Assembly (NCBI GenBank): GCA_041664205.1
Contig: JBAYLF010000001.1
Span: 67,380-131,379, forward strand
From: Minisyncoccota bacterium
GTDB lineage: Bacteria > Patescibacteriota > Minisyncoccia > Phycocordibacterales > JBAYLF01
Length of the DNA: 64,000 nt
Reading direction: 5' to 3'
A program made the translations under genes and the position numbers. Shown piece after piece: positions 19,877 to 57,199 of this stretch. Position 1 is the stretch's first letter. Every line of letters starts with the position of its first letter. A model generated the notes under the pieces. It was not told the DNA's origin. It was given only the letters and a program-made list of their open reading frames with translations, and did not search any database.

Positions 19877-19900
19877 AACCCCGCTAAATTTAGCGGGGTT
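19877..19900 (-). terminator. Intrinsic terminator after paralog A
   Basis: aaccccgctaaatttagcggggtt, a perfect hairpin. Confidence 0.7.
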
Positions 19901-19919
19901 ATAAAAAATATAGTCTAAA

Positions 19920-20537
19920 CTAACTTGGCTTTACGAGAATAAAACAATCCGTATCATCCAATCTCAATCCAAACCATGTCATGTTGAGTTTCCAATGAAA
20001 CTTAATTTGTTTGTTCCAAATTTTACTAACACGACCAAAGACATGAGGATCAACGACTCTCTTATTATAACTTGGTCTGGTAGATAAATTTCTCTCGATA
20101 TCTAAAGATGACAACCACTTACCTTCAGGAAAATACTCTTTTTTAAGTCGCCAAACAAGAGATAAACCTTGCATGCCGACTAAAAGCGCACCGTTCTTTC
20201 TGAGAAAATCCAGACAATCATTTACGGAAGTCGGAGTATTAACTTGAAATATCTGAACGGAATAGGTCCTTCCAGGCTCAAGTCTGTTACTCACTCTTTG
20301 AAAATCTTCATCAAGCATTTTTTTGGGTAAAATGATCCTTTCACATTGATCACTTCTTTTACCTTTATCTTTAGAAGCTTCTGTGAAAAATGAACTGACT
20401 TGTGTTCTATGTTCATAATCCAAAGGAATTGTCAGATAAAAACCACCAACAAGATCGAACCTTGAATCAAGGTGACTTATTAACGGTATTTCTGAAGTAA
20501 TAGTATCAGTAATTTCTATCGTTTCTATTTCTGTCAT
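19920..20537 (-). CDS. Unknown-function protein, tandem paralog A
   Basis: 205 aa. Clearly homologous to the adjacent 202 aa ORF (GGFYLTIP, LEPG.xYSVQI.QV, DCLDFL.KNGALLVGMQGL, FPEG.WL.SLD, KFHWKL, DCFILVKPS). Confidence 0.5.
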   Translation of the reverse strand: MTEIETIEITDTITSEIPLISHLDSRFDLVGGFYLTIPLDYEHRTQVSSFFTEASKDKGKRSDQCERIILPKKMLDEDFQRVSNRLEPGRTYSVQIFQVNTPTSVNDCLDFLRKNGALLVGMQGLSLVWRLKKEYFPEGKWLSSLDIERNLSTRPSYNKRVVDPHVFGRVSKIWNKQIKFHWKLNMTWFGLRLDDTDCFILVKPS

Positions 20538-20640
20538 AGTGTTTTTTCAATTTATCACATTGGTTTGAAACCAATGTGATAAATCTTTCTGCAAGTAGTA
20601 ATATCACACTTTTTTTAAGTTAGCAATATTAATTCTTAAA
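20538..20640 (-). promoter_or_regulatory. Conserved leader/promoter of paralog A with a perfect 27-bp palindrome
   Basis: ctgcaagtagtaatatcacactttttttaagttagcaatatt is shared with the leader at 21340-21385. The palindrome atcacattggtttgaaaccaatgtgat lies between it and the start codon. Confidence 0.5.
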
Positions 20641-20642
20641 TA

Positions 20643-20670
20643 AAACCCTCTGCTAGATTTAGCAGAGGGT
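20643..20670 (-). terminator. Intrinsic terminator after paralog B
   Basis: aaccctctgctagatttagcagagggtt hairpin. Confidence 0.7.
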
Positions 20671-20694
20671 TAAAAACACTATATAATATTTAAA

Positions 20695-21303
20695 CTAACT
20701 TGGCTTTACGAGAATAAAACAATCCTCAACATCCATAGGTAATTTAAACCATGCTGTGGTTAATTTCCAATGGAACTTTAATCTTTCGTCCCAAATTCTA
20801 TTTACGCGAGGAATCTCATATTTTCTAGTCTTATTATTATTCCTAGAACCTGGGCTACAAAATAATTTTTTCTCATAATCTAGAGATGTCAGCCATCTGC
20901 CTTCAGGAAAACATTCTTTTTTAAGTTGCCACGCAAGAGTTAAACCTTGCATACCAACCAGAAGTGCTCCGTTCTTAATGAGAAAATCCAGACAATCATC
21001 TGTAGAAGTTTTTTCATCAACTTGCAAAATTTGAACAGAATATATTTTTCCAGGCTCAAGTTTATCACTTACATTCGAAAAATCTTCATCAGATATATTC
21101 CTCGGTATAAGAAATTTTTCACAAAATTCAGTATGTTTGCCTTTGGTTTTAGAAGCCTCTACACAAAATGAACTGACTTGTGTATTACTCACATAATCTG
21201 AAGGAATGGTTAAATAAAAACCTCCAATTAAACTAAATCTCGGATCCTCATGGATCAATGGTATGTTTAAAACTTTCGTATCTGTCGTTTCTGTCTTTGT
21301 CAT
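20695..21303 (-). CDS. Unknown-function protein, tandem paralog B
   Basis: See paralog A. The two share a near-identical roughly 45-nt upstream element. Confidence 0.5.
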   Translation of the reverse strand: MTKTETTDTKVLNIPLIHEDPRFSLIGGFYLTIPSDYVSNTQVSSFCVEASKTKGKHTEFCEKFLIPRNISDEDFSNVSDKLEPGKIYSVQILQVDEKTSTDDCLDFLIKNGALLVGMQGLTLAWQLKKECFPEGRWLTSLDYEKKLFCSPGSRNNNKTRKYEIPRVNRIWDERLKFHWKLTTAWFKLPMDVEDCFILVKPS

Positions 21304-21529
21304 ATTATTTTATTTTTCAATAATTACCACATTAATTTCATATCAAGGTGGCAATTCGTTCTGCGAGTAGTAATATCACACTTTTTTTAAGTTAGCAATA
21401 TTTATTTTGAAAAATTTTTAATTGTATATAAATATATTTTTTAAAACAATTCCAATATCATCCTAGATAGCCAAAGTAAAATCGTTCCACTCCTGTTGAA
21501 AAAAGACTAGTTTTTGCTACAATATTGGA

Positions 21530-22282
21530 ATGATTTCATGGTTTTTTAATGTTTTTTTCTATAAACCGCTATACAACGGCCTTATTTTTTTACTCTATAT
21601 TCTCCCTTCATGGGCTGATGTTGGTATTGCCATAGTTCTATTTACATGTCTTGTTAAACTCGCTCTCTTCCCTCTTTCTCAAAAATCGATCAAAACTCAA
21701 ATAAAAATGAAAGAAGTTGAACCAGAAATGGCTGCGATAAAAGAAAAGTTTAAAGATAATAAGGAAGAACAGGCTAGACAAATGATGGAAATTTATAAAA
21801 ATAAAAAAATAAATCCATTTTCAGGCATCCTTGTTCTTTTTCTTCAAATTCCTATAATTTTAGCCTTATATTTTATATTTTTCCAAGGAGGTCTCCCTAT
21901 AATCGATTCGGGCATGCTATATAATTTCATTCCAAAGCCAGAGTTCGTTAATATGAATTTTCTTGGTATTTTGGATGTATCAAAAAAAAGTGCTATACTG
22001 GCATTCCTAGCGGGTATAACACAATATATGCAAGCTAGATTGATGCCTTCACCACAGAAAAAACCAGGTGTTGAATCAACTTTCCAAGACGATTTAGCAA
22101 GAAGTATGAATTTGCAAATGAAATATGTGTTTCCTGTGATAATTTTCATGATTGCATGGAATATTTCAGGAGCAGTTGCGCTTTATTGGGCAACAAGCAA
22201 CTTATTTATGGTTGGACAAGAACTTTATGTAAGAAGAAAGTTTAAAAAAGATCAAAATAATAGCCAACCTGCAGTAATTTAA
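21530..22282 (+). CDS. yidC: Membrane protein insertase YidC (short form)
   Basis: 250 aa, 5 TM, with a conserved YidC/Oxa1 core. It is followed by jag. Confidence 0.85.
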   Translation: MISWFFNVFFYKPLYNGLIFLLYILPSWADVGIAIVLFTCLVKLALFPLSQKSIKTQIKMKEVEPEMAAIKEKFKDNKEEQARQMMEIYKNKKINPFSGILVLFLQIPIILALYFIFFQGGLPIIDSGMLYNFIPKPEFVNMNFLGILDVSKKSAILAFLAGITQYMQARLMPSPQKKPGVESTFQDDLARSMNLQMKYVFPVIIFMIAWNISGAVALYWATSNLFMVGQELYVRRKFKKDQNNSQPAVI

Positions 22283-22285
22283 AAC

Positions 22286-22786
22286 ATGGAAAACGAACAA
22301 ATAAAAAATTTAATAAATGATTTACTAAACAAAATGACGATATCTGTCGATTCTATTGAATTTTTAGAAGACGGATTCGGCGGTAAAACCCGCATTTTAA
22401 TACACACAAGAGACTCAAGATTGTTAATCGGAAAAGGTGGAGAAAATCTCTTCTCTTTATCCCATATAATCAACAAAATAATTCATAAAGGTCAGGGGGT
22501 TCAAGATGATCCAGAAAAAGAAGAGAAAAGATTCATTATTGATGTAAATAACTACCAAAACAATCTTGTTCAAGAATTAAAAGTAAAAACAATGATCTTG
22601 GCAGATCGCGCTCGATCTTTCAGAAAAGATATCGAGCTTGAACCAATGTCTTCTTATGAACGCATGATAATCCATACTTTTTTTGAAAATGATTCTACAA
22701 TCAAAACTCAATCAAAAGGAGAAGGTAGGGATAGAAGAGTTGTTCTCTGTTACAACGAAGAATTTAATGATCTAGAAAGAATTTAA
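22286..22786 (+). CDS. khpB: Jag/KhpB (KH plus R3H RNA-binding protein)
   Basis: LLIGKGGENL (KH GxxG) and an R3H-type ERMIIHTFFEND. Conserved yidC-jag pair. Confidence 0.8.
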   Translation: MENEQIKNLINDLLNKMTISVDSIEFLEDGFGGKTRILIHTRDSRLLIGKGGENLFSLSHIINKIIHKGQGVQDDPEKEEKRFIIDVNNYQNNLVQELKVKTMILADRARSFRKDIELEPMSSYERMIIHTFFENDSTIKTQSKGEGRDRRVVLCYNEEFNDLERI

Positions 22787-22846: not shown

Positions 22847-24145
22847 TTAGTTCAATTTTAGACTCCATAATATAGAATCTTTTTTGTTTGTAAAAAATAG
22901 ATACGTTTCGCTATCATTCAAGAAAAGACTTACGGCATCAATATTTTTTGAGTTTTCAGTTACTGGACTTGAAACTATCTTAAATACTGAATTATTTAGA
23001 TTTATTTTCCATAATTCATCTGTAAAAGTTACAGAACCTTGATACCAATCATCAGGATATAATGCTTTAGGAATCTCTCTTGGAATTGCACAATACAAAG
23101 TTGCTGTTTCTTTTTTACTCCAAACGCATTTTTCTGGAAGAGTTGTAATTGTAAGCGACTCGTCTTTACCACTTTTCATAATTCGATGATAAAGAGAGAA
23201 AGTATCTCCTTGCGAAACAGAAAATATTATATGAGCAAGATCTGGCGAAACAAGCGAAGTCATACCATTTATATTGCCGATTTGTTTTTCAAATGTGCTT
23301 TTACCTTTACTTAGAAAGAATAAGAAACCAGGAACAGACGCTGAAGGTTTTGTTTGAAAAGCAACTATATCAGTTTGTGGCCATGATATTAACCAGCTCT
23401 TTATCGCTGATTGAAAAAATCCTTGTTTTTTTGTTCCATCAGGTTTTGAACTTACTCCTTGAGAACTATCTGAAGTTTCTTGAAGATAAAAAATCATATC
23501 TTTAAGCGGAGAAAGTGCAATTTCTTTTATATCTTGAGTAAGAAAATTACCATTTAATTCTTTTTCTGTGACCTGTTCTCCCGGCTGAGTGCTTTGAGGT
23601 GTTGTGCTCGCCTTTATACTGGTAGGTTGGAGTTTAGCATAAAAAGTATCTACTGATTCGGTATTATCTTTATTGTAACGGATTAGAACTGCTTCTCCTT
23701 TTTCCACCCATTTCGCTTCATAAATTTTAGGAATTGTTGTATTAGATATTTCTTTTATTTCTGGATAATTAGTTTGCGCTTCAAAAACATGACCTGTTGA
23801 TTTTTCCATAAAACGAACAAGATCATTATCATTTGTCTTTTTTATAGTTATTGCGCCAGCGATTGCAGTATTTGATATCTGTCTAAGTCTTGGAAGAGTA
23901 GTTGTTCCATTTTGATACGTTGGAGAAGTATTATTATTCTGATTCTGGGATGATTGATAGTTATTTTGCGTATTAGTATTGCTACTATTATTTGTTGACC
24001 CAAATGGATCAAACTCACTATTTAAAGGATTAAGCTGGCTTATATTTCCTCCTTGATTTAAAAATAGATAATAGAAAATAATAAGACCACCAATCAGAAC
24101 TATTAGAAAAATTATTATTGTTAGAGCTGTTGTTTTCTTAGACAT
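22847..24145 (-). CDS. Membrane-anchored secreted protein with an N/Q/S/T-rich linker (last gene of the T4SS-like locus)
   Basis: N-terminal TM IIIFLIVLIGGLIIFYYLF, a low-complexity linker, then a beta-rich C-terminal domain. Confidence 0.4.
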   Translation of the reverse strand: MSKKTTALTIIIFLIVLIGGLIIFYYLFLNQGGNISQLNPLNSEFDPFGSTNNSSNTNTQNNYQSSQNQNNNTSPTYQNGTTTLPRLRQISNTAIAGAITIKKTNDNDLVRFMEKSTGHVFEAQTNYPEIKEISNTTIPKIYEAKWVEKGEAVLIRYNKDNTESVDTFYAKLQPTSIKASTTPQSTQPGEQVTEKELNGNFLTQDIKEIALSPLKDMIFYLQETSDSSQGVSSKPDGTKKQGFFQSAIKSWLISWPQTDIVAFQTKPSASVPGFLFFLSKGKSTFEKQIGNINGMTSLVSPDLAHIIFSVSQGDTFSLYHRIMKSGKDESLTITTLPEKCVWSKKETATLYCAIPREIPKALYPDDWYQGSVTFTDELWKINLNNSVFKIVSSPVTENSKNIDAVSLFLNDSETYLFFTNKKDSILWSLKLN

Positions 24146-24249
24146 AGTTATATTTTAAAACAATAAGTAGGGTTTGTTTAGTGTATAACTTTATTTTTAC
24201 ATCAAACAAAATACTTCTATCAATACCCGAAAAAACCGCTTAATTAATA

Positions 24250-24684
24250 TTAATTTGAAGTTGAACCCCCCGAGTTTGTATTAACTTGTTGAATATCAAG
24301 AGAAAAAGTAACCAACTTAGGATTTATCGTATACAAAACCATGTATGAAGTCAGCGCAAGTAAAAGTCCGAGCAATGCATAAGTAACTTTACTCTTTCCT
24401 TCTTCCTTACCTGTAAATGAATCTGTAGACATATACTGTGCGCCACCAAGTATGATCATAATTAATGCAAGAAATATAGCGGTAGCAACTCCAACTTTAT
24501 AAAGAACATTTAAATATGCTACGAAACCTCCGCCTGTATATTCGGCGCCTTGAAGTTTAAAGTCAGCAAGAGGAACATATTCAGTAGAAGAGTTTCCAGT
24601 AGTATCCTCAGCAAATGCACAAAAAGGCAAAAATATCCCTATAAGCAAAAAAATCATTGATATGCCAACTATGTATTTCTTCAT
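24250..24684 (-). CDS. VirB2/TrbC-like pilin candidate
   Basis: 144 aa with a signal peptide and two hydrophobic helices (ATAIFLALIMIILGGAQYM and LLGLLLALTSYMVLYTI), the typical T4SS pilin architecture. Confidence 0.4.
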   Translation of the reverse strand: MKKYIVGISMIFLLIGIFLPFCAFAEDTTGNSSTEYVPLADFKLQGAEYTGGGFVAYLNVLYKVGVATAIFLALIMIILGGAQYMSTDSFTGKEEGKSKVTYALLGLLLALTSYMVLYTINPKLVTFSLDIQQVNTNSGGSTSN

Positions 24685-24719
24685 GTATTAATTAATTTAT
24701 TCTTTAATTAAAGTTAAAC

Positions 24720-25904
24720 TTATAATCCAAAAGTAGCTTGGCCATTTGGACTAAACTTCAGCGAAAAAGACGATTCGGCTGATTGGAATGTTTTAGAAAG
24801 ACTTTTTACAAAAACATCAATTGCTGAAGCTCCTTCCTTACTGTCAGCATTTCTGAATAAAATGTTTCCACTATTGTTTCCAGTAATATCTTGCTTGTTC
24901 ATTTGCCATCTATATTTAAGTGTCGAATCATTTCTGTTTGTGACACTAAAAAAGTAAGGTATTGCAACAAATTTCATTTCTTTACCTGTAAGTGATGTTT
25001 CTTTTTGTATCTTATTGTTATAAAGAATTCCAAAAAGCGGACTATTTTCATATATCGCAATTTTAGGTTGGCTATTAGAAGGATCGAAAAACACAGACCT
25101 CTCGGCAGATAAACTTCCCCCCATAGATTTTGCAACAACTTTTATTGTTGTAGGTCTTGTTATTGGGGTTGTATTAAAAACAAAAACATTTTTTCCATAA
25201 CCAGATGCTCCACTAACAACCGAGCCATTCTGTGACCAAGTGTATATAAGATTATTAGGATCAAGACGTTTGCCTCCATAAATAAAATTAGGAAAAGCAA
25301 CTATTGTTACACTGCTTTCTATCGTAAAAAGCGCTTTCCCAGAATAAAAAGGAGGGGTATAAGTATTCGCATCCCAGATCAAATCAACTTCTGCTGGTAT
25401 AAATGAAAGAACTTTCTTAACATAATTTCCATCATTTGTTGTAACTTCTACACTAACAACACTTTCCTTCCCCAATCCACCTGTAGTAAAACCGAAACTT
25501 TTTTCACCGGTTCCGCTAAGTTCTGTTTTACCGTTAACTCTCCAAATAACTTCAGATCGATCTAGATCAAAAGAAAAACTTTGAAGTGTTATTGTTACAT
25601 CATCATATGCTTTTGGATTTTGAGGACTAGAAACAACGGTAAGATTTTCTACTGTCGTAGATTCTTGCTGAAGCGGAGTAAAATCGACTGGCTCATAAGG
25701 TGGAGTAACTAGTGGTGTATAGATATCTGTAGTAGATGTATCATCAGTAGAATCTGATACTAAATCTGCTTGAGCAAACTCAGGAGGCAAAGGAGTATCT
25801 ATTGTTTGTGCAAAAGTTATAAAAGGCAAAAAGAATAAGACGAGTAATAAAATTATTCCTGTTTTCAAAATGGCATTATTACTTTGTGATTTTATAAAAA
25901 CCAT
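24720..25904 (-). CDS. Secreted beta-rich (Ig-like repeats) protein
   Basis: Signal peptide/TM, an acidic T-rich linker, and repeated beta-strand-pattern segments. Confidence 0.4.
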   Translation of the reverse strand: MVFIKSQSNNAILKTGIILLLVLFFLPFITFAQTIDTPLPPEFAQADLVSDSTDDTSTTDIYTPLVTPPYEPVDFTPLQQESTTVENLTVVSSPQNPKAYDDVTITLQSFSFDLDRSEVIWRVNGKTELSGTGEKSFGFTTGGLGKESVVSVEVTTNDGNYVKKVLSFIPAEVDLIWDANTYTPPFYSGKALFTIESSVTIVAFPNFIYGGKRLDPNNLIYTWSQNGSVVSGASGYGKNVFVFNTTPITRPTTIKVVAKSMGGSLSAERSVFFDPSNSQPKIAIYENSPLFGILYNNKIQKETSLTGKEMKFVAIPYFFSVTNRNDSTLKYRWQMNKQDITGNNSGNILFRNADSKEGASAIDVFVKSLSKTFQSAESSFSLKFSPNGQATFGL

Positions 25905-25931
25905 TATTTATTTTTGAATTAACTTAATAAA

Positions 25932-26438
25932 TTATTTTATTGGAAGCGATCTTGTTTTTGTAGTATTTATTTTTTGAACACTTTTACCTTTTGGAATTGC
26001 AGAGCCTCTGGCAACATTTTGTTTTTTTGGTGTGGCTTGATTTCTATTTCTTGAATAGCGAGATGATACATTTCCACTACTGATCATACTATTATTATAC
26101 TCTGCATCTTCTTCTCTAACAATTTTAGTAACTCTCCAAACCATAAAAGTATAATCTGGAATGAATGCACCAACTTCAGGAATAGCACTAACTACTGCAG
26201 AAATTATAAAAGTTCTTGCTTTCTTAGCTTCCCATATCGATATTGATTTTGATGCAAACCATAATCCAAATAATGAATAACCTAATAAATCAATAATGAG
26301 TCCGAATATCCAACCGATAACAGGAATCAACTCTATAAGATTCAAAATATCAAAAAATATTGCTGTTCCAATCATTAGGTCATAATCAATACCTGAAATT
26401 CTTTCCCTTGGTGTTGTATTTGTTCTTACGCCATCCAT
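25932..26438 (-). CDS. Small polytopic membrane protein with a basic C-terminal tail
   Basis: 3 predicted TM segments and a K/R-rich tail. Confidence 0.4.
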   Translation of the reverse strand: MDGVRTNTTPRERISGIDYDLMIGTAIFFDILNLIELIPVIGWIFGLIIDLLGYSLFGLWFASKSISIWEAKKARTFIISAVVSAIPEVGAFIPDYTFMVWRVTKIVREEDAEYNNSMISSGNVSSRYSRNRNQATPKKQNVARGSAIPKGKSVQKINTTKTRSLPIK

Positions 26439-26440
26439 AT

Positions 26441-28330
26441 TTATTTTTTCGTTACAGCTTCTTCATCTTTTCCTTGACCTGCACTTTCAGAAGCCTGCTG
26501 AGCTGCTTCCATTTGTTTGCGATCATCTTTTGCCTTTCTTATTGCCAAAAGCTGTGAAGGGTCTGAAGTAATGATCTGATCTTCTGTATAAGATGAAATA
26601 ACTTTGATAGCTACATGCTTCATTCCAGCGAAAAATATTCCCTCCCCTACGTCAGATTCAAGCAAAAGATATTTTTCCTCTTCTGTAAGATTAAATGTTC
26701 TTTGAATATTATCTATTGATGATGGCGACTGCTTCAATAAAAGCTGAATGGATGAGTTCGTAATAATAGGAAGACCGTATGGCGATTTCAAAAAGTCATC
26801 AACATCCTGCGTAATAGTAGCAAGGCCAAGATAATATTTTCTTCCTCTTTTTGCCAAAGAAAGCAAGAATGATGCAGTATCTTCGGATTTCATCATCCAC
26901 CAAGCCTCGTCAATAACCAGCAATCGTTTCTTTAGTTCTTTTCTAATGGCATTCCATATAAAGTGCGTAACAATATACATAGCAACTGGTTTCAATTCGT
27001 CTTCCATGTCTCTAATAGAGAACACTACGAATTTTTTGTTTATATCAACGTTTGTTGGTTGGTTAATGAAACCTGACCATGTTCCTTTAGTATATTTTGC
27101 AAGTTTTGCAACAAGCGACTCGGCGCCGTCCATACCAGCAAGTACTAATTCAAAGTCAGAAAGAAGTGGTGGTTCGAGATTAGCAAAATCAGATTCCGCA
27201 GTAATGTCTTTAAGTGCATAAGTTTCGGTAATAGCTCGGTCAATAATAGAATCTTCTTCAGGAGTAAGTCCTCCAAGCATAATACGAAAAAGTCCTACAA
27301 GGTTAACGATGTTTGAACGCAAAACATCTGATGGCGATTCATCTTCTCTTGGCATTGGAAGATCAAAAGGATTTATATGATGTTCTGATGTAAGAGATAT
27401 CTTAAAATATCTACCTCCTGTTGCTTCCGCGAGATATTCGTACTCTCTTTCAGGGTCAATCACAAGAACATCGGAATCAAACATCAGTGTTCTTATAATC
27501 TCAAGTTTTGTTGTGTATGATTTTCCCGCTCCAGCTTTTGCAAAAGTTACAGAGTTATAGTTTTCAAGAGAAAATCTATCAAAAAGAATAAGACTTGAAT
27601 TGTGACGATTTATTCCATAAAGAATACCTTTATCCGAAGTAAGGTCAAAAGAAATAAATGGGAAAAGACTTGAAAGAGGCGACGAATTTAATTTCGAGTG
27701 AACATTTAAAAGATCGGTAGCTATTGGTATAACACTTTTAAATCCTTGCTCCTGCTGGAAAAGAGCTGGTTTTACGTAAACTAAACGAGCCTCAAGGATT
27801 GATTTAATCTCTGATTCTACCTTATCAATCTCTGCTTCATTATCACCATATATAGAAATATATAATCCGACATCAAAAATTCTCTCTTGCGCTCTTTGAA
27901 GATCATCTCGAAGTCTTTCGAGATCTTGATATGCTGTGTCCAACATCGGATCGCGAACAACTCCTTTTTCTTCTCTTGTATGTATCTGACTTTGAACCTC
28001 GGCCACTTTTTTCTGGAACTGTCTCAAAACAGTTGAAGTATCTATAGGATGAACAAAAATTGAAATATCATAAACTTTATCCAAGTTTATAATAGGAGCA
28101 AACCAATTATCAGAAAGAAAACGCGGATATGAAATAACGTAAAAGGTACGAACAATTTTATCGCCAAGATTTAATTCTTTTGATGTAATCTTAAGAGCTG
28201 ATGGCGCAATAACATCCTTGAGCTCTAAAACTCCAGTGTCATAAATTTCTTGAGGTAAAAATGAACTGATGTCAGTTGTTTTTTTCTCTTCTTTTTTTGT
28301 TTTACCGAAAAGATCGTCTAATAAAGACAT
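26441..28330 (-). CDS. virB4: VirB4/TrbE-family type IV secretion ATPase
   Basis: Walker A AKAGAGKSYTT and Walker B LLVIDEAWWMM (the DEAW signature of VirB4). The N-terminal IAPSALKITSKELNLGDKIVRTFYVISYPRF resembles the VirB4/PrgJ-type N-domain. Confidence 0.85.
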   Translation of the reverse strand: MSLLDDLFGKTKKEEKKTTDISSFLPQEIYDTGVLELKDVIAPSALKITSKELNLGDKIVRTFYVISYPRFLSDNWFAPIINLDKVYDISIFVHPIDTSTVLRQFQKKVAEVQSQIHTREEKGVVRDPMLDTAYQDLERLRDDLQRAQERIFDVGLYISIYGDNEAEIDKVESEIKSILEARLVYVKPALFQQEQGFKSVIPIATDLLNVHSKLNSSPLSSLFPFISFDLTSDKGILYGINRHNSSLILFDRFSLENYNSVTFAKAGAGKSYTTKLEIIRTLMFDSDVLVIDPEREYEYLAEATGGRYFKISLTSEHHINPFDLPMPREDESPSDVLRSNIVNLVGLFRIMLGGLTPEEDSIIDRAITETYALKDITAESDFANLEPPLLSDFELVLAGMDGAESLVAKLAKYTKGTWSGFINQPTNVDINKKFVVFSIRDMEDELKPVAMYIVTHFIWNAIRKELKKRLLVIDEAWWMMKSEDTASFLLSLAKRGRKYYLGLATITQDVDDFLKSPYGLPIITNSSIQLLLKQSPSSIDNIQRTFNLTEEEKYLLLESDVGEGIFFAGMKHVAIKVISSYTEDQIITSDPSQLLAIRKAKDDRKQMEAAQQASESAGQGKDEEAVTKK

Positions 28331-28356
28331 ATGATTTTAATTAAATTTCTTAGTGA

Positions 28357-29019
28357 TTACTCTAATTGAATAGGTTTCTCCATTTCTCCAGGATTAAATA
28401 ATTTATAAAATAACTCGATTATTTCTTCCGTTCCTAATTGAACGACTCTTACACCACAACGAACAAGTCCTTGCTCTACTACTGATATACGCTGTTCTAA
28501 TTGAGTTCGATGTTCTTCAAAATCAAAACTCTGGTCGGCTTTTTTAGAAGTAGGTTTGTCTTTCTGTGGAAGTATTCCTCCAAATGTTGATTTTTTTATA
28601 TTCAAAATTGCTGGACTGTATGGAATAACAATGAAAAAACTTTTTGTCATAATGTTCGTGCTTTCTGTAAAAGTTCTGATGAATTCTATATACTCACCTG
28701 TTTGAATTTTCATTAGATCTGAAACCTGATCTTTAAGCCTGTTTTCCAAAAGAGCAATGTAAGGTCTAATATCAAGTTTTCTTGATTCTGCAAATATTTG
28801 TATTGAAAAATTAACTGAGTTAAGAAAATTCTGAAACTGCAATATAATAGCGTTCTGCTCATCTTCTGACTTCAATGCAAAGTTTAATGATGATGTCATA
28901 ACAATTGCCCTTAAAGATCCGTCTTTAAGCACTACAATACCGTCTCGGATTTCTTTCATTGGAATAAAATCCTGTGTTGCTTTTGCGTTTTGAGTATTTT
29001 GTGTATTTGGTGCGACCAT
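28357..29019 (-). CDS. Stand-alone VirB4 N-terminal-domain-like (CagE/TrbE/VirB family) protein
   Basis: IRDGIVVLKDGSLRAIVMTSSLNFALKSEDEQNAIILQFQNFLNSV and C-terminal LVRCGVRVVQLGTEEIIELFYKLFNP resemble the N-domain of Gram-negative VirB4. There is no ATPase motif. Confidence 0.4.
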   Translation of the reverse strand: MVAPNTQNTQNAKATQDFIPMKEIRDGIVVLKDGSLRAIVMTSSLNFALKSEDEQNAIILQFQNFLNSVNFSIQIFAESRKLDIRPYIALLENRLKDQVSDLMKIQTGEYIEFIRTFTESTNIMTKSFFIVIPYSPAILNIKKSTFGGILPQKDKPTSKKADQSFDFEEHRTQLEQRISVVEQGLVRCGVRVVQLGTEEIIELFYKLFNPGEMEKPIQLE

Positions 29020-29046
29020 TTAATATTTTTGTTTAAATTGAAATTT

Positions 29047-29499
29047 TTAAAATTTAATCGAATTTTTTTCTTTAATTTCTTTACTTACTCCGCTTAAGTT
29101 TTCATTAATATCTAAACTCCATGTAAGCTCTTTTAATTTACTTTCGGAAAGTTTAGGAATTCTTAAGGAGGATTTTGCTTGTGCTTCTTCTTTTTTAAGT
29201 GTTTTCTTTTCTTCTTTCTTCCAAAGATATAATCTTGATCCTAAATAATATCTAATTGCAGACTCGACGACGAAAATAAAAGGTTTGTTGTTAATTTTAA
29301 TAAACGCTAGAGCAAAAGAAAATCCAAGAACGGGCGCAATAATTAAAAGTGCTGCATAAAATGGCAACAATTTATAAACAATAAATGCAATACCTAGACC
29401 TCCCCCCATATAAACAAATTGTTTAAATGTAAATGGTCCAATTATTTTGTCTTCTATTTCAATGAATTGTGGAACTTGATAACGCATGATATTTTTCAA
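29047..29499 (-). CDS. VirB3/PrgI-like small membrane protein
   Basis: 150 aa. YQVPQFIEIEDKIIGPFTFKQFVYMGGG followed by two TM helices, the PrgI/VirB3 arrangement, immediately upstream of the VirB4 genes. Confidence 0.4.
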   Translation of the reverse strand: MKNIMRYQVPQFIEIEDKIIGPFTFKQFVYMGGGLGIAFIVYKLLPFYAALLIIAPVLGFSFALAFIKINNKPFIFVVESAIRYYLGSRLYLWKKEEKKTLKKEEAQAKSSLRIPKLSESKLKELTWSLDINENLSGVSKEIKEKNSIKF

Positions 29500-29536
29500 T
29501 TTTTACTCCATTCTTATCACTACTATTTACTTTTCT

Positions 29537-29610
29537 GTCATTCCCGCGAAGGCGGGAATCCAGTCTTCATCTTCTCTACTCTGGATTCCCGCCTTCGCGG
29601 GAATGACAGT
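29537..29610. repeat. Double-hairpin palindromic repeat element, copy 1
   Basis: tgtcattcccgcgaaggcgggaatccag ...17 nt... ctggattcccgccttcgcgggaatgaca. Each arm is itself a GAAG/CTTC-loop hairpin. It is GC-rich relative to its surroundings, and a second copy lies at 40129-40200. Confidence 0.7.
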
Positions 29611-29649
29611 GTTGAAGACTTCACAACTTTAAACACTCTTACCCTACAA

Positions 29650-30489
29650 CTAACTCAGTGGCTCCTTATAAGGATCTGTAACGTTAGAATCTTTTTTAAT
29701 CTCTGTCTTCATAACCATTTTCTGTGGCTCTTTTATAATTTTTTCTTCCTTTTGTGATACCACAATGTCATTTAACTTTGCTTCATGAATAGAAAGTAAT
29801 GGTTTGGAAACAGGCGCTTCAATCTCTGGAATATTTAGATCCTGAACTGGTTTTACCGGAACTGCGACAGAATTAGCAACAACTGCAGAACTTATTGGTT
29901 TTTTATCAACGATAACCATTTCCTGTTTTTTATCTTTTGATTCCATAAACATTGTCTGCTTTTGCACATTTGTATCTGTTTTTGAAGTTATAGTTGATGG
30001 ATTTTCAATTTCTTTTAAAAGATCGTCTTTTGACATTTTTTCAAAATCTTCTTCTTTAATTTCCTTAATTGGTGTTGTTGAAACTGTAGGATTTTCTTCC
30101 ATTACTTCAATTTGACTCTCTTGATCTTCAGCTTGCTGTTTTTTTAATTCTTCTTGATAAGCAGTTTCTTCGTCATCGTGCATTTTTATCAACGATTGGC
30201 GTATAGTTTTAAAAATTTGATCATTCACATCAGCAGCTATAGCCTCAGCCTGCCCTGTGCTCATAAGAAGATCGTCTCTTACATCCTTAACAAAATCCTC
30301 TGGATGAGAAATTCCAACCATTACAAGCATCGTGTCAGTTTCAAGCTGATCAATTTGATCTAAGTGCAACGCATGCTTCTTTGAAATTCCTTGAAGAATT
30401 TCTTTAGTGTTTAAAGAAACAATTGCTTGTTTGATGTCTTTTGGAAGACGCTCAAGACTTTGTTTTAATATTTGTTCTGTTTCGTCCAT
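29650..30489 (-). CDS. Acidic coiled-coil protein (T4SS-locus component, probably cytoplasmic)
   Basis: A start at MDETEQ (30489) avoids overlap with the upstream gene. The protein is E/K/Q-rich with no TM. Confidence 0.4.
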   Translation of the reverse strand: MDETEQILKQSLERLPKDIKQAIVSLNTKEILQGISKKHALHLDQIDQLETDTMLVMVGISHPEDFVKDVRDDLLMSTGQAEAIAADVNDQIFKTIRQSLIKMHDDEETAYQEELKKQQAEDQESQIEVMEENPTVSTTPIKEIKEEDFEKMSKDDLLKEIENPSTITSKTDTNVQKQTMFMESKDKKQEMVIVDKKPISSAVVANSVAVPVKPVQDLNIPEIEAPVSKPLLSIHEAKLNDIVVSQKEEKIIKEPQKMVMKTEIKKDSNVTDPYKEPLS

Positions 30490-30508
30490 ATTTTTATTTT
30501 TAAATTTT

Positions 30509-32704
30509 TTACACTGATGCTGTTGGAGGTTTTGGTGTTGGAGGTTTTGGTTTTTCTTCTTGAACACCTTCTCCTGATTTTGTTTGCTCCTTCATCTCAC
30601 TCATTGCAGCTTCAAATATTTTGTCTTTATTACTCTTACTTTTTACTATCTTAGCTAATGCCATCTTGTCTGACTTTCCTAATGCCCCACCTGTCATCTT
30701 TGATAAAATTGATTTTTCTAACCCAGCTTTCATTTTATTTCCTCTATCTCTTGCCTTTTGTTCTATTGCCATTTTCTTGGTAATAGCTGCTTTAGAAATC
30801 TCCATTTTTTTCTCTGTTTCCGCAATTTTTCTTTTTGCCTCTTGTGCTTCTCTATTAGCTGCTTCCCGACGAGAATTAGACATCATTGGATTAGAAGAAA
30901 TAGCAGCTGCTGCTCTTAGATTACTCTTTTCTTTATTTAGTGTTCCTTCTAATTCTTTCATATTTCCTATCTTGCTTTGCTCTGCTGCTGCAGCAAGAGT
31001 TTCAGCTGTTGTTTGACTAGAAACCATTCCATGCATCTGGGTTTTTGCTTCAGTTTGTTTTTTAAGTTCAGCTGCAAAACCACCCCTTCCTCCAGCTGCG
31101 CCTACACCCATAGAACCTCCCACACCAGTAGCTCTAACATCAAAACTTGATTTTCCAACTTTACTCAAACCTTGTAGAGCAAGACGCCCAGCCTTACTAC
31201 CAGCTAAACTTCTAGCAAAATCTGAGTCAGATAACATTTCCGCTCCACGTCCAAATGTTTGTCTTCCTGCCCAACCCGCACCACCTAATACTGCTCCACC
31301 TGCATAAGCTTGGGCTTTACCAACAAATGTGCTTACAGCAGAACCTCCTTTTGAAGCTAATGATCTAGATATCACAAGTGATGCTATTAAAAATGCAGAA
31401 ACCACAATAAAATTTAGAATAATACCCATACTTCCGGAACCACTTGGATTACTAAGAGCATTTATAAATCCTCCATTATTCTTCATGGCCATTGCTGTTT
31501 TAAAACTATCACTAGTCACAATTAAAAGCGTGATCCATATAAGCATGAAAAATATTGGTGCAAAAAATGCTTGAGAAAAAAGTGCGCTCCACCACTTACT
31601 TGTAAAACTTCTGGTTTGAGGAAGCACCATACTAACAAAAGCTAAAGGCGACAATATCATTACCATTACCAAAACTACAAATCTTGTTGCAAAAAGTATA
31701 GCCGCAATAAAAAATACAAACGAGGTGATTAGTAAAAATATTGATCCCATCGTTGCTATTACAAAAGCATTTTCATTTTCAAGAAAAGCAAATTTATTAC
31801 TACCTGAGGCTTTTGCTTTTTCAATTTGATCTTTAGAAGGTATAAATATACTTTGAAGATTATAAACAGACTGAAACGACCCAGAAATATCTGGCGTGCC
31901 GTTAGCAGTTTGCGCACCTGTAGCAGAATAAAATTCTTTAGCTAAAATATTAGAAGAATCAATTATAACTTTTGTAATAAATAAACTGAAATTTATCAGA
32001 ACAATAGCTATTGCAAGTCTAGCAAGAAGCTGTTTAGTACCGAAGTTACTTAATTGAAGTATCGTAGCAATAGCAATATACAGAAGTATAAAAATAAATG
32101 TCATGTTTGCTACATCTCTCAGGGCTAGCCATGCTGTATTAATAGCGTCTATATTCGACACATTCGCAGCCATTTGAACAACAGTAATATTTACAGAATA
32201 ATTTAAAAGTGCAGATGCTTGAGCAAGAATCCATCCACATAATAACAAAAGGGCATAACCAAGATTTTTTAGAAGTAAACTAATACAAGCCCAAGAAAAT
32301 AAATTTATTACTCCACATTGCTTACTAGCGGCTTCTTCAGCCTTTTTTTGCTGATCTTGAGTTTGATATGGTTGAGTATTCTTAATATAGAGACTTCCAT
32401 CAGCATTCTGACTAAGATTCATTGCATAATTATTATCTGCTCCATCAAAAAGCATGGTGGCATGATTTTGACCATAAGCCGTGCTCTTATAACTTACAGG
32501 TTTATCGTTTATATATAGTTGATTATTTGCATCTGCTGTAAGTTTATAATTTGGATCTTGCTGCATTTTTAGAACATTCTGGACTTCATTTGAAAGAGGA
32601 GCTGTAGTATTCGTGGTTTGTGCATTCACACTTAAAGCAAAACTAAGAAGCATAACAATGGTTAAGCTAAAAAATATTAAAGTGTGTAAAATATTTTTTT
32701 TCAT
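30509..32704 (-). CDS. VirB6/TrbL-like polytopic membrane protein with an N-terminal periplasmic domain and a long Gly/Ala-rich then charged C-terminal tail
   Basis: Signal peptide, a roughly 130 aa periplasmic domain, at least 6 TM helices, then a G/A/S-rich region and a lysine/glutamate-rich tail ending in PKPPTPKPP. Confidence 0.55.
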   Translation of the reverse strand: MKKNILHTLIFFSLTIVMLLSFALSVNAQTTNTTAPLSNEVQNVLKMQQDPNYKLTADANNQLYINDKPVSYKSTAYGQNHATMLFDGADNNYAMNLSQNADGSLYIKNTQPYQTQDQQKKAEEAASKQCGVINLFSWACISLLLKNLGYALLLLCGWILAQASALLNYSVNITVVQMAANVSNIDAINTAWLALRDVANMTFIFILLYIAIATILQLSNFGTKQLLARLAIAIVLINFSLFITKVIIDSSNILAKEFYSATGAQTANGTPDISGSFQSVYNLQSIFIPSKDQIEKAKASGSNKFAFLENENAFVIATMGSIFLLITSFVFFIAAILFATRFVVLVMVMILSPLAFVSMVLPQTRSFTSKWWSALFSQAFFAPIFFMLIWITLLIVTSDSFKTAMAMKNNGGFINALSNPSGSGSMGIILNFIVVSAFLIASLVISRSLASKGGSAVSTFVGKAQAYAGGAVLGGAGWAGRQTFGRGAEMLSDSDFARSLAGSKAGRLALQGLSKVGKSSFDVRATGVGGSMGVGAAGGRGGFAAELKKQTEAKTQMHGMVSSQTTAETLAAAAEQSKIGNMKELEGTLNKEKSNLRAAAAISSNPMMSNSRREAANREAQEAKRKIAETEKKMEISKAAITKKMAIEQKARDRGNKMKAGLEKSILSKMTGGALGKSDKMALAKIVKSKSNKDKIFEAAMSEMKEQTKSGEGVQEEKPKPPTPKPPTASV

Positions 32705-45189: not shown

Positions 45190-45208
45190 GTGCGGGATGG
45201 GAGAATCG
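45190..45208 (-). repeat. Direct repeat of the 3' end of tRNA-Gly(UCC) (att-like)
   Basis: gtgcgggatgggagaatcg, identical to 45345-45363 inside and next to the tRNA. Confidence 0.75.
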
Positions 45209-45345
45209 GTCACAACTCTTTTGCTTCGCAAAAGGTCGCGACCCCGGCTCGCTTTTTTGTAAGACAAAACATGGCTCCGCCTTTCGATTCTCCACGCAGG
45301 CAAAGCAGTTTGCCTGCTCATCCTGCTCGCTCACTTTGTTCGCTG
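45209..45345. other. 137-bp GC-rich structured insert between the tRNA-Gly(UCC) gene and the partial copy of its 3' end
   Basis: Homologous to the insert at 48294-48430. It contains the hairpin gcaggcaaactgctttgcctgc and an inverted copy of the host T-arm (ttcgattctcc). Confidence 0.6.
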
Positions 45346-45416
45346 TGCGGGATGGGAGAATCGAACTCCCACCCACAGTTTGGAAAACTGTTATTCTACC
45401 ATTAAACTAATCCCGC
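45346..45416 (-). tRNA. tRNA-Gly (anticodon UCC)
   Basis: Manual fold: acceptor GCGGGAT/ATCCCGC, anticodon stem ACAGU/ACUGU, loop UUUCCAA, T-arm GGGAG-UUCGAUU-CUCCC, discriminator A. 71 nt with CCA not encoded. Confidence 0.75.
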
Positions 45417-48272: not shown

Positions 48273-48293
48273 CTGTGCGGGTAGGGAGAATCG
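48273..48293 (-). repeat. Direct repeat of the 3' end of tRNA-Gly(GCC) (att-like)
   Basis: ctgtgcgggtagggagaatcg, identical to 48431-48451. Confidence 0.75.
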
Positions 48294-48430
48294 ATCACAA
48301 GTTTCCTCAATCCGTTCGGAACTCGCGATCCCGCCTCGCCTGTTTTGCTAGGCAAAACATGGCTCCGGCTTCCGATTCTCCACGCAAACAAAGCAGTTTG
48401 TTTGCTCTACCTGCTCGCTCACTTCGTTCA
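48294..48430. other. 137-bp GC-rich structured insert 3' of tRNA-Gly(GCC), homologous to 45209-45345
   Basis: Shares caaaacatggctccg..ttccgattctccacgca..caaagcagtttg...cctgctcgctcact with the other Gly insert. Its hairpin gcaaacaaactgctttgtttgc shows compensatory changes relative to gcaggcaaactgctttgcctgc. Confidence 0.6.
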
Positions 48431-48433
48431 CTG

Positions 48434-48504
48434 TGCGGGTAGGGAGAATCGGACTCCCGTCTCATCCTTGGCAAGGACGTGTTCTACCACTAAACCATAC
48501 CCGC
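48434..48504 (-). tRNA. tRNA-Gly (anticodon GCC)
   Basis: Manual fold: acceptor GCGGGUA/UACCCGC, anticodon stem CGUCC/GGAUG, loop UUGCCAA, T-arm GGGAG-UCCGAUU-CUCCC. Confidence 0.75.
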
Positions 48505-55165: not shown

Positions 55166-55277
55166 GTTTAAATTCTTATTTCGGAAGTAAAAAATCATCG
55201 AAAATTTTCGATGATTTTTTACTTAGTTGTGTATTGTTTTATTGTTATTGATTAGTTTTTGAACTAAAATATATATA

Positions 55278-56879: not shown

Positions 56880-56940
56880 AAATATATAATGAAAAACTGC
56901 GTGCAAAATTATTCAATTTTGCACGCAGTTTGTTTTATAT

Positions 56941-57150: not shown

Positions 57151-57199
57151 ATATCTGAATAAGATAATGACAGTAAAATATAATTAAGTCAATAATTTC

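What the first reader, a model, noticed from the sequence alone, without database searches (positions are those of the whole stretch)
19877..21420. Tandem paralog pair of unknown function with conserved promoter-leader and a perfect 27-bp palindrome
Two adjacent minus-strand ORFs (205 and 202 aa) are clear paralogs with no recognisable domain. Each ends in its own strong intrinsic terminator. Each is preceded by a near-identical roughly 45-nt element (ctgc[a/g]agtagtaatatcacactttttttaagttagcaatatt) that reads on the coding strand as a -35/-10-like promoter. Paralog A additionally has the perfect palindrome atcacattggtttgaaaccaatgtgat between that element and the start codon, which could be an operator or 5'UTR hairpin. 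Paralog B has a degenerate version. This looks like a recently duplicated, individually regulated gene module, a candidate accessory or defence/effector family.
Basis: seen in the sequence. Interest (0 to 1): 0.55.

Follow-up and report, generated by a model that had tools for sequence, protein, structure and literature searches.

The report
Retroelement-target protein pair without its retroelement
The two adjacent unknown genes belong to a large family found only in ultra-small (Patescibacteria/CPR) bacteria, whose tail end is normally rewritten by a mutagenic retroelement (DGR). Here no such element lies within 64 kb, and the two copies appear to have diverged by ordinary evolution, each keeping its own conserved promoter, 5' hairpin and terminator.

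Summary
Two minus-strand paralogs (205 and 202 aa, 59% identical) each have a near-identical 45-nt promoter-like element, a leader hairpin and a terminator. In paralog A the hairpin is a perfect 35-bp palindrome, not 27 bp.

The proteins are not orphans. An exhaustive HMMER search found 722 relatives with no Pfam, NCBIfam or PHROG model. In related genomes the last ~41 codons of these genes are the variable region (VR) of a diversity-generating retroelement (DGR). I found 15 template/variable repeat pairs with adenine-only mismatches, next to Avd and reverse-transcriptase genes, and two loci carry two family targets each.

The window pair looks uncoupled from a DGR:
- There is no RT, Avd or template repeat in 64 kb.
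- The tail lacks the GC-rich template signature.
- 9 of 33 tail differences lie at third codon positions, against 1 of 248 in real pairs.

The tail still evolves fastest (dN/dS 0.85-2.5, against 0.24 in the scaffold). The duplication is old (dS about 0.8), so the conserved promoter and the hairpin, which keeps its pairing through compensatory changes, are under constraint or were converted.

Verdict: a divergent, probably DGR-independent branch of a known kind of C-type-lectin-like binding protein. A remote DGR elsewhere in the 300-kb contig is not excluded (about 20%).

The parts
19877..19900 (-). Terminator-like GC-rich hairpin of paralog A. The stem is 10 bp, the loop 4 nt, and it lies 19 nt after the stop codon.
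   Evidence: I4. It is homologous to the paralog B hairpin, with a compensated insertion on both arms.
19916..19950 (-). 35-nt block identical in both paralogs: the last 9 codons (DCFILVKPS), the stop codon and 4 nt. It sits at the position that holds the 3' end of the VR (the TR-homologous, IMH-like end) in DGR-linked homologs.
   Evidence: The Logan contig L045 breaks inside this block.
19920..20537 (-). Paralog A CDS (205 aa; GenBank WCW87_00470). It is a single domain with no signal peptide.
   Evidence: The AF2 model has pLDDT 82.8.
19923..20045 (-). VR-equivalent segment of paralog A: the last 41 codons, which form the C-terminal beta-strands in the model.
   Evidence: Mapped by alignment to homologs with a proven VR. 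dN/dS is raised here. No TR-like signature was found.
20550..20584 (-). Perfect 35-bp palindrome, read as the 5'-UTR stem-loop of paralog A. It ends 11-13 nt before the ATG.
20594..20630 (-). Conserved promoter-like element of paralog A. The -35 hexamer TTGCTA is at 20621-20626, TG at 20605-20606 and the -10 hexamer TATTAC at 20598-20603, giving a 17-nt spacer.
   Evidence: The hexamer assignment is my reading of the sequence. The scan did not list this site, because its rule needs a T at position 6 of the -10 hexamer.
20644..20671 (-). Terminator-like hairpin of paralog B. The stem is 12 bp and the loop 4 nt. It lies 18 nt upstream of paralog A's -35 hexamer.
20691..20725 (-). The 35-nt identical 3' block, copy in paralog B.
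20695..21303 (-). Paralog B CDS (202 aa; GenBank WCW87_00475).
21322..21356 (-). Degenerate leader hairpin of paralog B (14 pairs in the MFE fold).
21366..21402 (-). Conserved promoter-like element of paralog B. The -35 hexamer is at 21393-21398 and the -10 hexamer at 21370-21375.

Best explanation
**What the proteins are.** The two genes encode small cytoplasmic single-domain proteins (no signal peptide is visible). They belong to a Patescibacteria-specific family that elsewhere is the variable (target) protein of diversity-generating retroelements. The predicted fold has the secondary-structure order of a C-type-lectin-like domain. The last ~45 residues (two beta-hairpin strands plus the terminal strand) form the part that DGRs hypermutate in homologs, so this is presumably the ligand-binding face.

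**DGR status (inferred).** In this genome the pair is most likely no longer, or not currently, rewritten by a DGR. It is an old tandem duplication. The conserved scaffold is under purifying selection, and the former VR has diverged fastest by ordinary substitution. This gives two fixed binding specificities.

**Gene units (inferred from sequence).** Each gene is its own transcription unit with three flanking elements:
- a sigma-70-type promoter with an extended -10 (TTGCTA-N14-TG-A-TATTAC);
- a ~55-60-nt 5' UTR carrying a stable stem-loop that acts at the RNA level (mRNA stability or control of translation initiation);
- an intrinsic terminator.

**Shown versus inferred.** Shown here: homology to proven DGR targets; absence of RT, Avd and TR in 64 kb; the substitution patterns; conservation of the cis elements. 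Inferred: the fold assignment, loss of DGR coupling, the promoter hexamers, the RNA-level role of the hairpin and the ligand-binding function.
For: **Family and its DGR link.**
- There are 722 relatives at E<=1e-3 and 261 at E<=1e-10.
- Homologs lie directly upstream of bAvd and RVT_1 genes.
- 15 TR/VR pairs have adenine-specific mismatches, for example 15/16, 20/21, 16/16 and 21/21, and the VR is the last ~41 codons.
- Loci L008 and L021 each have two family targets per TR.
- In a neighbour-joining tree the window pair nests among DGR-linked members.

**No DGR in the window.**
- tblastn with the clade's RT and Avd gave no hit better than E=0.12.
- An adenine-tolerant TR scan found nothing for the last 120 or 60 nt, or for any 60-nt segment of either gene.

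**No DGR signature in the tail.**
- Tail GC is 0.34-0.36, the same as the rest of the gene. Canonical members in AT-rich genomes show 0.49-0.59 in the tail against 0.33-0.36 in the rest.
- The tails are only 34-53% identical to the clade's TRs, which are 84% identical to each other.
- 9 of 33 A/B differences in the last 41 codons fall at codon position 3. In real TR/VR pairs the figure is 1 of 248, and TR adenines are almost never at position 3.

**Selection pattern.** dS is 0.81 overall. dN/dS is 0.24 for residues 20-150, 2.5 for 151-170 and 0.85 for 160-196.

**Fold.** The AF2 model has pLDDT 82.8. The top Foldseek PDB and BFVD hits are C-type lectins, but weak (E=0.1, TM 0.27-0.46).

**Cis elements.** Hairpin pairing is retained in B with P=0.003 by simulation.

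**Literature.** CPR DGR targets typically lack recognisable domains, and novel C-Lec variants are expected there (PMC8144416). CPR VR classes are left as 'unknown VRs' (PMC5758913).
Against: - About 236 kb of the 300,645-bp contig, and the rest of the MAG, could not be read. A remote DGR with a non-canonical, AT-rich TR therefore cannot be excluded.
- The 35-nt block at the 3' end is perfectly identical in both paralogs. It sits exactly where co-targets of one TR share their 3' end, and a GC-rich hairpin follows 19-23 nt downstream. This is what an IMH-plus-hairpin target site would look like (PMC3240598; compare L008 and L021).
- The promoter and the RNA role of the hairpin are not tested experimentally.
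- Full identity of the promoter spacer is not explained by promoter function alone.
- Only two sequences exist for all covariation arguments.
Confidence: 0.6

Rival explanations
1. The two genes are active remote co-targets of a DGR encoded elsewhere in the genome. On this reading the 35-nt identical 3' block is the IMH-like end shared with the TR, and the downstream GC-rich hairpins double as the hairpin/cruciform needed for retrohoming.
For: - The family is a proven DGR target family, and tandem double targets exist (L008, L021).
- Many canonical members have no RT within 6 kb.
- Remote targets are documented (PMC5758913, PMC8144416).
- The 3' block is identical 35/35 and includes all 9 synonymous sites.
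- The hairpins lie 19-23 nt after the stop codon, within the 4-34 bp range reported for DGR targets (PMC3240598).
- dN/dS is highest in the VR-equivalent segment.
Against: - Third-codon-position and synonymous differences in the VR-equivalent region (9 of 33) should be erased by each retrohoming event and are absent from real pairs.
- The tail shows no GC/TR compositional signature and no similarity to the highly conserved TRs of this DGR clade.
- The hairpin loops are AATT and AATC, not GRNA (PMC3240598).
- No RT, Avd or TR lies within 20-43 kb on either side.
Confidence: 0.2
2. The palindrome is a DNA operator for a dimeric repressor, and the fully conserved promoter block is part of the same regulator's binding region. 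The pair would then be co-regulated by a trans-acting HTH protein.
For: - Paralog A carries a perfect 35-bp dyad placed between the promoter and the ATG.
- The whole 37-nt promoter block, spacer included, is conserved despite dS of about 0.8.
- A partly conserved half-site core ([AT]TT..CAC.TT) is seen in both genes (my reading).
Against: - Paralog B changed 10 of 34 arm positions yet keeps 15 of 17 pairs. This includes 3 double compensatory changes and 2 G.T pairs that pair only in the sense RNA. That pattern is typical of selection on RNA structure, not on a protein-recognised sequence.
- 17-bp arms are far longer than typical operators.
- The half-site occurs nowhere else in the window beyond chance.
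- No regulator gene is adjacent.
Confidence: 0.2
3. The near-perfect identity of the 5' (promoter) and 3' (last 35 nt) ends reflects recent short-tract gene conversion between the tandem copies, not selection on those sequences.
For: - Identity is absolute over whole stretches, including the promoter spacer and synonymous sites, which function alone does not require.
- The copies are tandem and in the same orientation, 772-778 bp apart.
Against: - Two separate tracts would have to sit precisely on the functional boundaries of the unit, while the 600 bp between them stays at about 70% identity.
- The hairpin between the promoter and the ATG has diverged with compensation, so it was not converted.
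Confidence: 0.25
4. One reading: a novel, recently duplicated defence or effector module of an unknown family.
For: - No Pfam, NCBIfam, PHROG or PDB sequence match was found.
- The genes are accessory and individually transcribed.
Against: - The family is large and its genomic role elsewhere is clear: it is a DGR variable protein.
- The duplication is old.
- The neighbours are housekeeping genes: yidC, jag, a histidine phosphatase and a DedA-PAP2 protein.
- The family is absent from viral contigs.
Confidence: 0.07

Closest known systems
DGR variable (target) proteins of Patescibacteria/CPR: DGR clade 2 of Roux et al. 2021 (PMC8144416) and the 'unknown VR' (UVR) classes of Wu et al. 2018 (PMC5758913)
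   Same: - The scaffold is homologous (residues ~20-155, E down to 1e-24), with shared motifs F.LT[IV]P.DY, L.PG..Y.V.I, DCL.FL, LVG.QGL.L and FP.G.W..S.D.
- The C-terminal beta-strand pattern ends in DC[FL][IL]L.
- The proteins are small and lack Pfam domains.
- Tandem two-gene arrangements also occur in true DGR loci (L008, L021).
   Different: - No TR, Avd or RT lies within 64 kb.
- The C-terminal 41 codons lack the canonical HRVP..R.SDG.F.F.LG.F...W....CLLCFCD sequence and its GC-rich, TR-derived composition.
- The paralogs differ at third codon positions.
- There is no ~50-aa N-terminal helical extension.
- A dedicated conserved promoter and a 5' hairpin are present, and these are not seen upstream of homologs.
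C-type-lectin-fold DGR variable proteins with solved structures: Mtd, TvpA, the archaeal AvpA (PMC5006420) and Thermus TaqVP (PMC6328139)
   Same: - The variable segment sits at the C-terminus of a compact alpha/beta domain.
- The predicted secondary-structure order is beta-alpha-alpha-beta-beta-beta-beta, as in a CTLD.
- The best Foldseek hits are C-type lectins.
   Different: - No sequence-level match to any PDB chain was found, even with a profile.
- Structural scores are weak (E=0.1, TM<0.5).
- None of those proteins themselves appeared among the hits.
Non-adjacent or remote DGR targets (Treponema, Trichodesmium; PMC5758913, PMC8867640)
   Same: These are target-family genes located far from any RT. 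Their 3' ends are conserved, and a hairpin follows.
   Different: Remote targets are defined by an adenine-only match to a TR. None could be found or tested here, and the substitution pattern argues against one.
5'-terminal stem-loops that stabilise bacterial mRNAs (for example the ompA and ermC leaders; from my own knowledge)
   Same: A stable hairpin lies near the predicted 5' end of a short UTR. Its pairing is preserved by compensatory change.
   Different: The TSS is not mapped, the stem is unusually long and perfect (17 bp), and the RNase repertoire of this organism is unknown.

Membership tests
Patescibacteria DGR-target protein family (sequence family; no Pfam model) | Significant sequence homology across the scaffold to proteins of the family | tested here: met
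   A profile HMMER search found 261 proteins at E<=1e-10. The conserved motifs and an invariant Gln in the LVG.QG motif are present. The pair nests inside the family tree.
DGR variable protein (functional definition) | A VR in the gene paired with a TR that differs almost only at TR adenines | tested here: not met
   No TR was found in the 64-kb window for any 60-120-nt segment of either gene. Neither paralog can serve as TR for the other (18/81 and 19/82 non-A mismatches).
DGR variable protein (functional definition) | A DGR reverse transcriptase, with or without Avd, in the same genome | tested here: inconclusive
   Both are absent from the window: the best tblastn E-values are 0.36 for RT and 0.12 for Avd. 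About 236 kb of the contig and the other contigs of the MAG were not available.
DGR variable protein (functional definition) | Differences between co-targets restricted to TR-adenine positions (codon positions 1 and 2 in this clade) | tested here: not met
   The window A/B differences in the last 41 codons fall at codon positions 1, 2 and 3 as 13, 11 and 9. In 15 real TR/VR pairs the counts are 135, 112 and 1.
DGR variable protein (functional definition) | A target-site 3' element (IMH-like end) followed by a GC-rich hairpin with a 4-nt GRNA loop, 4-34 bp downstream | tested here: inconclusive
   A 35-nt identical 3' block is present, and 10-12-bp hairpins with 4-nt loops lie 19-23 nt downstream. 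However, the loops are AATT and AATC, and the hairpins also look like ordinary terminators. The criteria come from PMC3240598.
C-type lectin-like fold | Structural similarity to CTLD or CLec-fold proteins | tested here: inconclusive
Sigma-70-type promoter with extended -10 | -35 and -10 hexamers with a 16-18-nt spacer and TG at -15/-14; transcription start downstream | tested here: inconclusive
   TTGCTA-17-TATTAC with TGA directly upstream of the -10 is present in both copies. The consensus scan did not list it. TSS mapping is not possible with these tools.
Known RNA families (Rfam) | A match at gathering score to any Rfam model in the leader or 3' region | tested here: not met
   The best hit was rnk_leader at 30 bits, against a gathering score of 50. 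Nothing reached threshold.

The most novel reading that the evidence does not exclude
The pair is still diversified, but by a remote and non-canonical DGR with an AT-rich TR that carries adenines at all codon positions. The 35-nt shared block would be its IMH, and the terminators would double as the retrohoming hairpins. This would be an unrecognised DGR lineage in Paceibacteria that targets a promoter-equipped two-gene cassette.
Probability: 0.15. Interest if true: 0.6.

Novelty: new variant of a known kind. Interest (0 to 1): 0.4.

Why it matters
It turns two 'hypothetical proteins' into members of a definable family. The family is large, restricted to CPR bacteria and has no Pfam model. It is a DGR variable-protein family with a probable C-type-lectin-like fold.

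The pair also offers a natural comparison. The same scaffold appears once under retroelement-driven hypermutation, in many relatives, and once apparently evolving by duplication and ordinary divergence. In both cases the fastest change is in the same C-terminal segment. That helps in asking what these non-secreted CPR binding proteins recognise, and what happens to DGR targets after the retroelement is lost.

The practical value is modest. The work gives a seed alignment for a family model, and a small, cleanly delimited promoter/5'-hairpin/terminator cassette from a phylum whose gene-expression signals are poorly known.

Tried and rejected
**Searches that found nothing.**
- Pfam, NCBIfam and PHROGs, on the two proteins and on 62 and 29 family members, gave only noise.
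- A PDB sequence search with the single protein and with a profile found nothing.
- Rfam at a permissive E-value gave nothing near threshold.
- The first AF2 run, with a 2-sequence alignment, was unusable (pLDDT 44.8).
- The first word-indexed homolog search returned only the protein itself and its paralog, which wrongly suggested an orphan.
- The family has no relatives in viral contigs.

**Libraries and records not available.**
- Paul et al. 2017 and the supplement of Wu et al. 2018 are not held.

**Attempts to reach the rest of the genome.**
- A metagenome scan for the 3' block gave 4 chance matches and not this contig.
- Look-ups of paralog A and four other window proteins gave either no record or loci that add at most ~300 nt beyond the window.

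**Tests I rejected.**
- 'An adenine is present in one of the two paralogs at differing sites' does not work as a DGR test. The expected fraction is about the same under both models (my own reasoning, not a tool result).
- I considered the break of the Logan contig next to paralog A as a sign of population hypervariability. It starts 30 nt inside the 35-nt repeat, so it is a k-mer repeat artefact.

**Readings I rejected.**
- An integron attC-like reading of the 3' block: the block does not fit GTTRRRY. No check for an integrase was run.
- The leader palindrome as a terminator: no U-tract follows it on either strand.

**Negative checks on the cis elements.**
- The leader hairpin is not a family-wide feature.
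- The palindrome half-site and the promoter element do not recur in the window.
Full report
**1. The observation**

The window carries two minus-strand ORFs, 19920-20537 (205 aa, 'A') and 20695-21303 (202 aa, 'B'). They are 59% identical (E=6e-86).

An alignment of the two ~810-nt units shows that similarity starts abruptly at AATATTGCTAAC... and ends after the terminator. The repeated unit is therefore promoter, leader, CDS and terminator, with a period of 772-778 bp.

- **Promoter block.** A 37-nt block is exactly repeated at 20594-20630 and 21366-21402 and occurs nowhere else in 64 kb. The wider 45 nt differ at one base.
- **Palindrome in A.** It is 17+1+17 = 35 bp and perfect (20550-20584), not 27 bp. 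As RNA it folds at -20 kcal/mol (z=-6.5).
- **Hairpin in B.** B has a weaker hairpin (-12.5 kcal/mol, z=-4.0).
- **Terminators.** Both genes are followed by GC-rich terminator-like hairpins (19877-19900 and 20644-20671).

**2. The proteins are not orphans**

Pfam, NCBIfam and PDB sequence searches are empty. The word-indexed search of 5.8 billion clusters returned only the two proteins themselves, annotated as hypothetical proteins WCW87_00470 and WCW87_00475 of a Candidatus Paceibacterota MAG on a 300,645-bp contig.

The exhaustive profile search of 1.84 billion representatives gave a different picture. It found 722 relatives at E<=1e-3 and 261 at E<=1e-10, mostly 165-280 aa. They share these motifs:
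- F.LTVP.DY.H.TQL
- TD.NF
- L.PGKTY.VKIF
- SEDCL.FL
- LVGAQGLSL (the Gln is invariant)
- FP.GKW..SFDEK.ALW
- RVP
- W.F.LG.F...W....CLLCFCD

None of 62 and 29 members matches any Pfam or PHROG model, and a family profile finds no PDB chain. The family is absent from IMG/VR viral contigs. All but one of the 35 loci in GTDB species representatives are titled as Patescibacteria or as unclassified 'bacterium' MAGs; one MAG is labelled Bdellovibrionales.

**3. What the family is**

Two homologs lie immediately upstream of a bAvd gene and an RVT_1 reverse transcriptase.
- In both, the last ~120 nt of the gene are repeated ~465 nt downstream.
- The two copies differ almost only where the downstream copy has an adenine: 15/16 and 20/21 mismatches.
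- That is the signature of a DGR template repeat (TR) and variable repeat (VR).

Across the GTDB loci, 13 of 35 (L005-L034) have RT and Avd within ~1.5 kb, always in the order target, TR, Avd (reverse strand), RT. With L001 and L002 that makes 15 RT-bearing loci, and each shows an adenine-specific TR/VR pair. The per-adenine statistics in section 4 use 15 pairs from 13 distinct loci: L008 and L021 contribute two each, L005 duplicates L002, and the gapped L012 pair is left out.
- Loci L008 and L021 each have two family genes diversified from one TR.
- Some RT-less loci (L010, L017, L019) carry tails that match TRs of other genomes with mostly A-mismatches.
- The TRs of this clade are 84% identical (median) across CPR classes.

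This fits published surveys.
- A DGR clade is restricted to Patescibacteria, and its targets lack recognisable domains (PMC8144416).
- CPR VR classes were left as 'unknown VRs' because the fold could not be assigned (PMC5758913).

**4. Is the window pair a DGR target?**

Several independent tests say probably not, at least not of the canonical kind.

(a) tblastn with the clade's RT and Avd finds nothing in the window (best E=0.36 and 0.12).

(b) A scan that lets TR adenines match anything finds no TR. This holds for the last 120 or 60 nt and for any 60-nt segment of either gene. Neither paralog can be the other's template (18/81 and 19/82 non-A mismatches).

(c) Composition differs. In canonical members living in AT-rich genomes the tail is strongly GC-enriched (L004: 0.59 against 0.36; L011: 0.49 against 0.33), reflecting the conserved TR. 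In the window pair the tail has background GC (0.34-0.36).

(d) The tails are only 34-53% identical to the clade's TRs. Their protein sequence (…KFHWKL..WF.L..D..DCFILVKPS) departs from the canonical tail.

(e) Codon positions give the most discriminating test.
- In the 15 real TR/VR pairs, TR adenines sit at codon positions 1 and 2 (3 of ~460 at position 3). Mismatches fall 135, 112 and 1 over positions 1, 2 and 3.
- The A/B differences in the homologous 41 codons fall 13, 11 and 9.
- Retrohoming overwrites the whole VR, so third-position and synonymous differences between co-targets should not persist.

In a neighbour-joining tree of the scaffold region the window pair sits on a long branch inside the family, among DGR-linked members. 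A few other AT-rich members with non-canonical tails (L014, L025, L036, L007) also lack a nearby RT. DGR linkage therefore looks ancestral, and its absence looks derived.

**5. What cannot be excluded**

The window is positions ~55,419-119,418 (reversed) of the contig. I could not read the other ~236 kb or the rest of the MAG.

One feature fits a target site. The last 9 codons, the stop codon and 4 nt (35 nt; 19916-19950 and 20691-20725) are identical in both genes.
- All synonymous sites are included, although only 69% of same-residue codons are identical elsewhere in the gene. By my arithmetic the chance of nine identical codons given identical residues is 0.69^9, about 0.035.
- This block is homologous in position to the TR-matching 3' end of the VR in relatives.
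- It is followed after 19-23 nt by a 10-12-bp GC-rich hairpin with a 4-nt loop.

In BPP-1 an IMH plus a downstream GC-rich hairpin (7-10 bp stem, 4-nt GRNA loop, 4-34 bp away) suffices for targeting (PMC3240598). True co-targets in L008 and L021 also share their 3' ends and downstream sequence.

Against this reading, the loops here are AATT and AATC, and the hairpins are equally good ordinary terminators. I put a remote or non-canonical DGR at about 0.15-0.2.

**6. Evolution of the pair**

The duplication is old: pS is 0.50 and dS is 0.81.

| Residues | Region | dN/dS |
|---|---|---|
| 20-150 | scaffold | 0.24 |
| 151-170 | start of the VR-equivalent part | 2.5 (few sites; alignment uncertain) |
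| 160-196 | VR-equivalent part | 0.85 |

The paralogs therefore differ most exactly where relatives are hypermutated.

**7. Fold**

With a 29-sequence alignment AF2 gives pLDDT 82.8 and pTM 0.80. The secondary-structure elements are:
- beta 27-36
- alpha 43-56
- beta 91-99
- alpha 105-114
- alpha 121-135
- beta 141-143
- beta 165-175
- beta 179-188
- beta 197-204

From residue 91 on, this is the order beta1-alpha1-alpha2-beta2-beta3-beta4-beta5 of a C-type lectin-like domain (my reading).

No signal peptide or TM segment is visible in A or B, though some relatives have one.

**8. The cis elements**

*Promoter.* The conserved block reads TTGCTA-N14-TG-A-TATTAC: a -35 hexamer, a 17-nt spacer and an extended -10. 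The consensus scan missed it because its rule needs a T at position 6 of the -10 hexamer. With dS about 0.8, one mismatch in 45 non-coding nt is far from neutral. By my arithmetic the probability is about 2e-6 even at the gene's average 70% identity. Promoter function alone does not explain an invariant spacer, so either an overlapping binding site or short-tract gene conversion remains possible.

*Leader hairpin.* Relative to A, B changed 10 of 34 arm positions yet keeps 15 of 17 pairs.
- Three pairs changed on both sides (T-A to A-T, T-A to C-G, G-C to A-T).
- Two became G.T, which pair only as G.U in the sense RNA.
- Two are broken.
- Random placement of 10 substitutions keeps >=15 pairs in 0.3% of 200,000 trials.

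This favours a structural RNA element in the 5' UTR. It would begin ~10 nt after the predicted start and end 11-13 nt before the AUG, and no Shine-Dalgarno sequence is evident. A protein operator is less likely. The evidence rests on two sequences only.

The hairpin is not found upstream of homologs, and its half-site does not recur in the window.

*Insulation.* B's terminator ends 18 nt before A's -35 hexamer, so the units are insulated from each other.

**9. Context**

The neighbours are housekeeping genes:
- yidC and jag/khpB, divergently transcribed
- a histidine phosphatase
- a DedA-PAP2 fusion
- a SIMPL protein

Composition is unremarkable. No regulator gene is adjacent.

**10. Verdict**

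Its interpretation needs replacing. The pair is a divergent, lineage-specific branch with no relative closer than ~36% identity (best local matches) among 15 billion proteins. It belongs to the Patescibacteria DGR variable-protein family and appears to be uncoupled from its retroelement, with unusually well-preserved private expression signals. It is a new variant of a known kind and of moderate interest.

Noticed in passing
window 19916-19950 and L045 (Logan SRR6484324 contig): The same organism, 100% identical over 6.8 and 8.8 kb, is present in run SRR6484324. Its contig L045 starts at window 19945, 30 nt inside the 35-nt block shared by the paralogs. This is a k-mer repeat break, not evidence of variation.
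   Followed up: yes
window 22847-32704 (minus strand): A cluster that looks like a type IV secretion or conjugation-like system. It includes a TraG/VirB4-type P-loop ATPase (26441-28330) and several Pfam-less proteins with N-terminal hydrophobic segments (22847-24145, 24250-24684, 24720-25904).
   Followed up: partly
window 55195-64000 (L043 gene table) versus 21530-22786: dnaA, dnaN, rpmH and rnpA lie at about 56.9-60.6 kb, but yidC and jag, which usually follow rnpA, lie ~35 kb away, next to the paralog pair.
   Followed up: no
window 45190-45231, 48275-48316 and 48314-48355: Extra copies of the 3'-end sequence of tRNA-Gly (GTGCGGGATGGGAGAATCG on the plus strand) lie ~155 nt from each of the two annotated tRNA-Gly genes (45345-45416 and 48433-48504). 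They could be undetected tRNA genes, fragments or att-like duplications.
   Followed up: no
L001:4576-9194: A complete DGR cassette (target, TR, Avd, RT) is inserted between secY and adk inside the ribosomal-protein operon of a CPR genome.
   Followed up: partly
L018:5815-6579: A family member carries an internal tandem duplication of ~33 residues (LVGGQGVTLLQDNKADQFPVGKWTVSFDEKD, twice) covering the most conserved motif.
   Followed up: no
L034 and L037 (two contigs of MAG MFD01223.bin.1.26): An identical target gene with an identical VR appears on two contigs. Only L034 has Avd and a partial RT beside it. This is either a very recent duplication or an assembly duplicate.
   Followed up: partly
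TRs in L001-L034 (for example L001:6998-7119): The template repeats of this DGR clade are 84% identical (median) across different CPR classes. The target scaffolds they serve are only ~30-60% identical at protein level. The VR is GC-rich even in genomes with 32-36% GC.
   Followed up: partly
window 28767-28812 (minus strand): A third, 72%-similar copy of the promoter-like element (TTGCAG...TGATATTA) lies inside ORF 28357-29019, ~440 nt upstream of the ATPase gene start. It may hint at the organism's promoter consensus.
   Followed up: no
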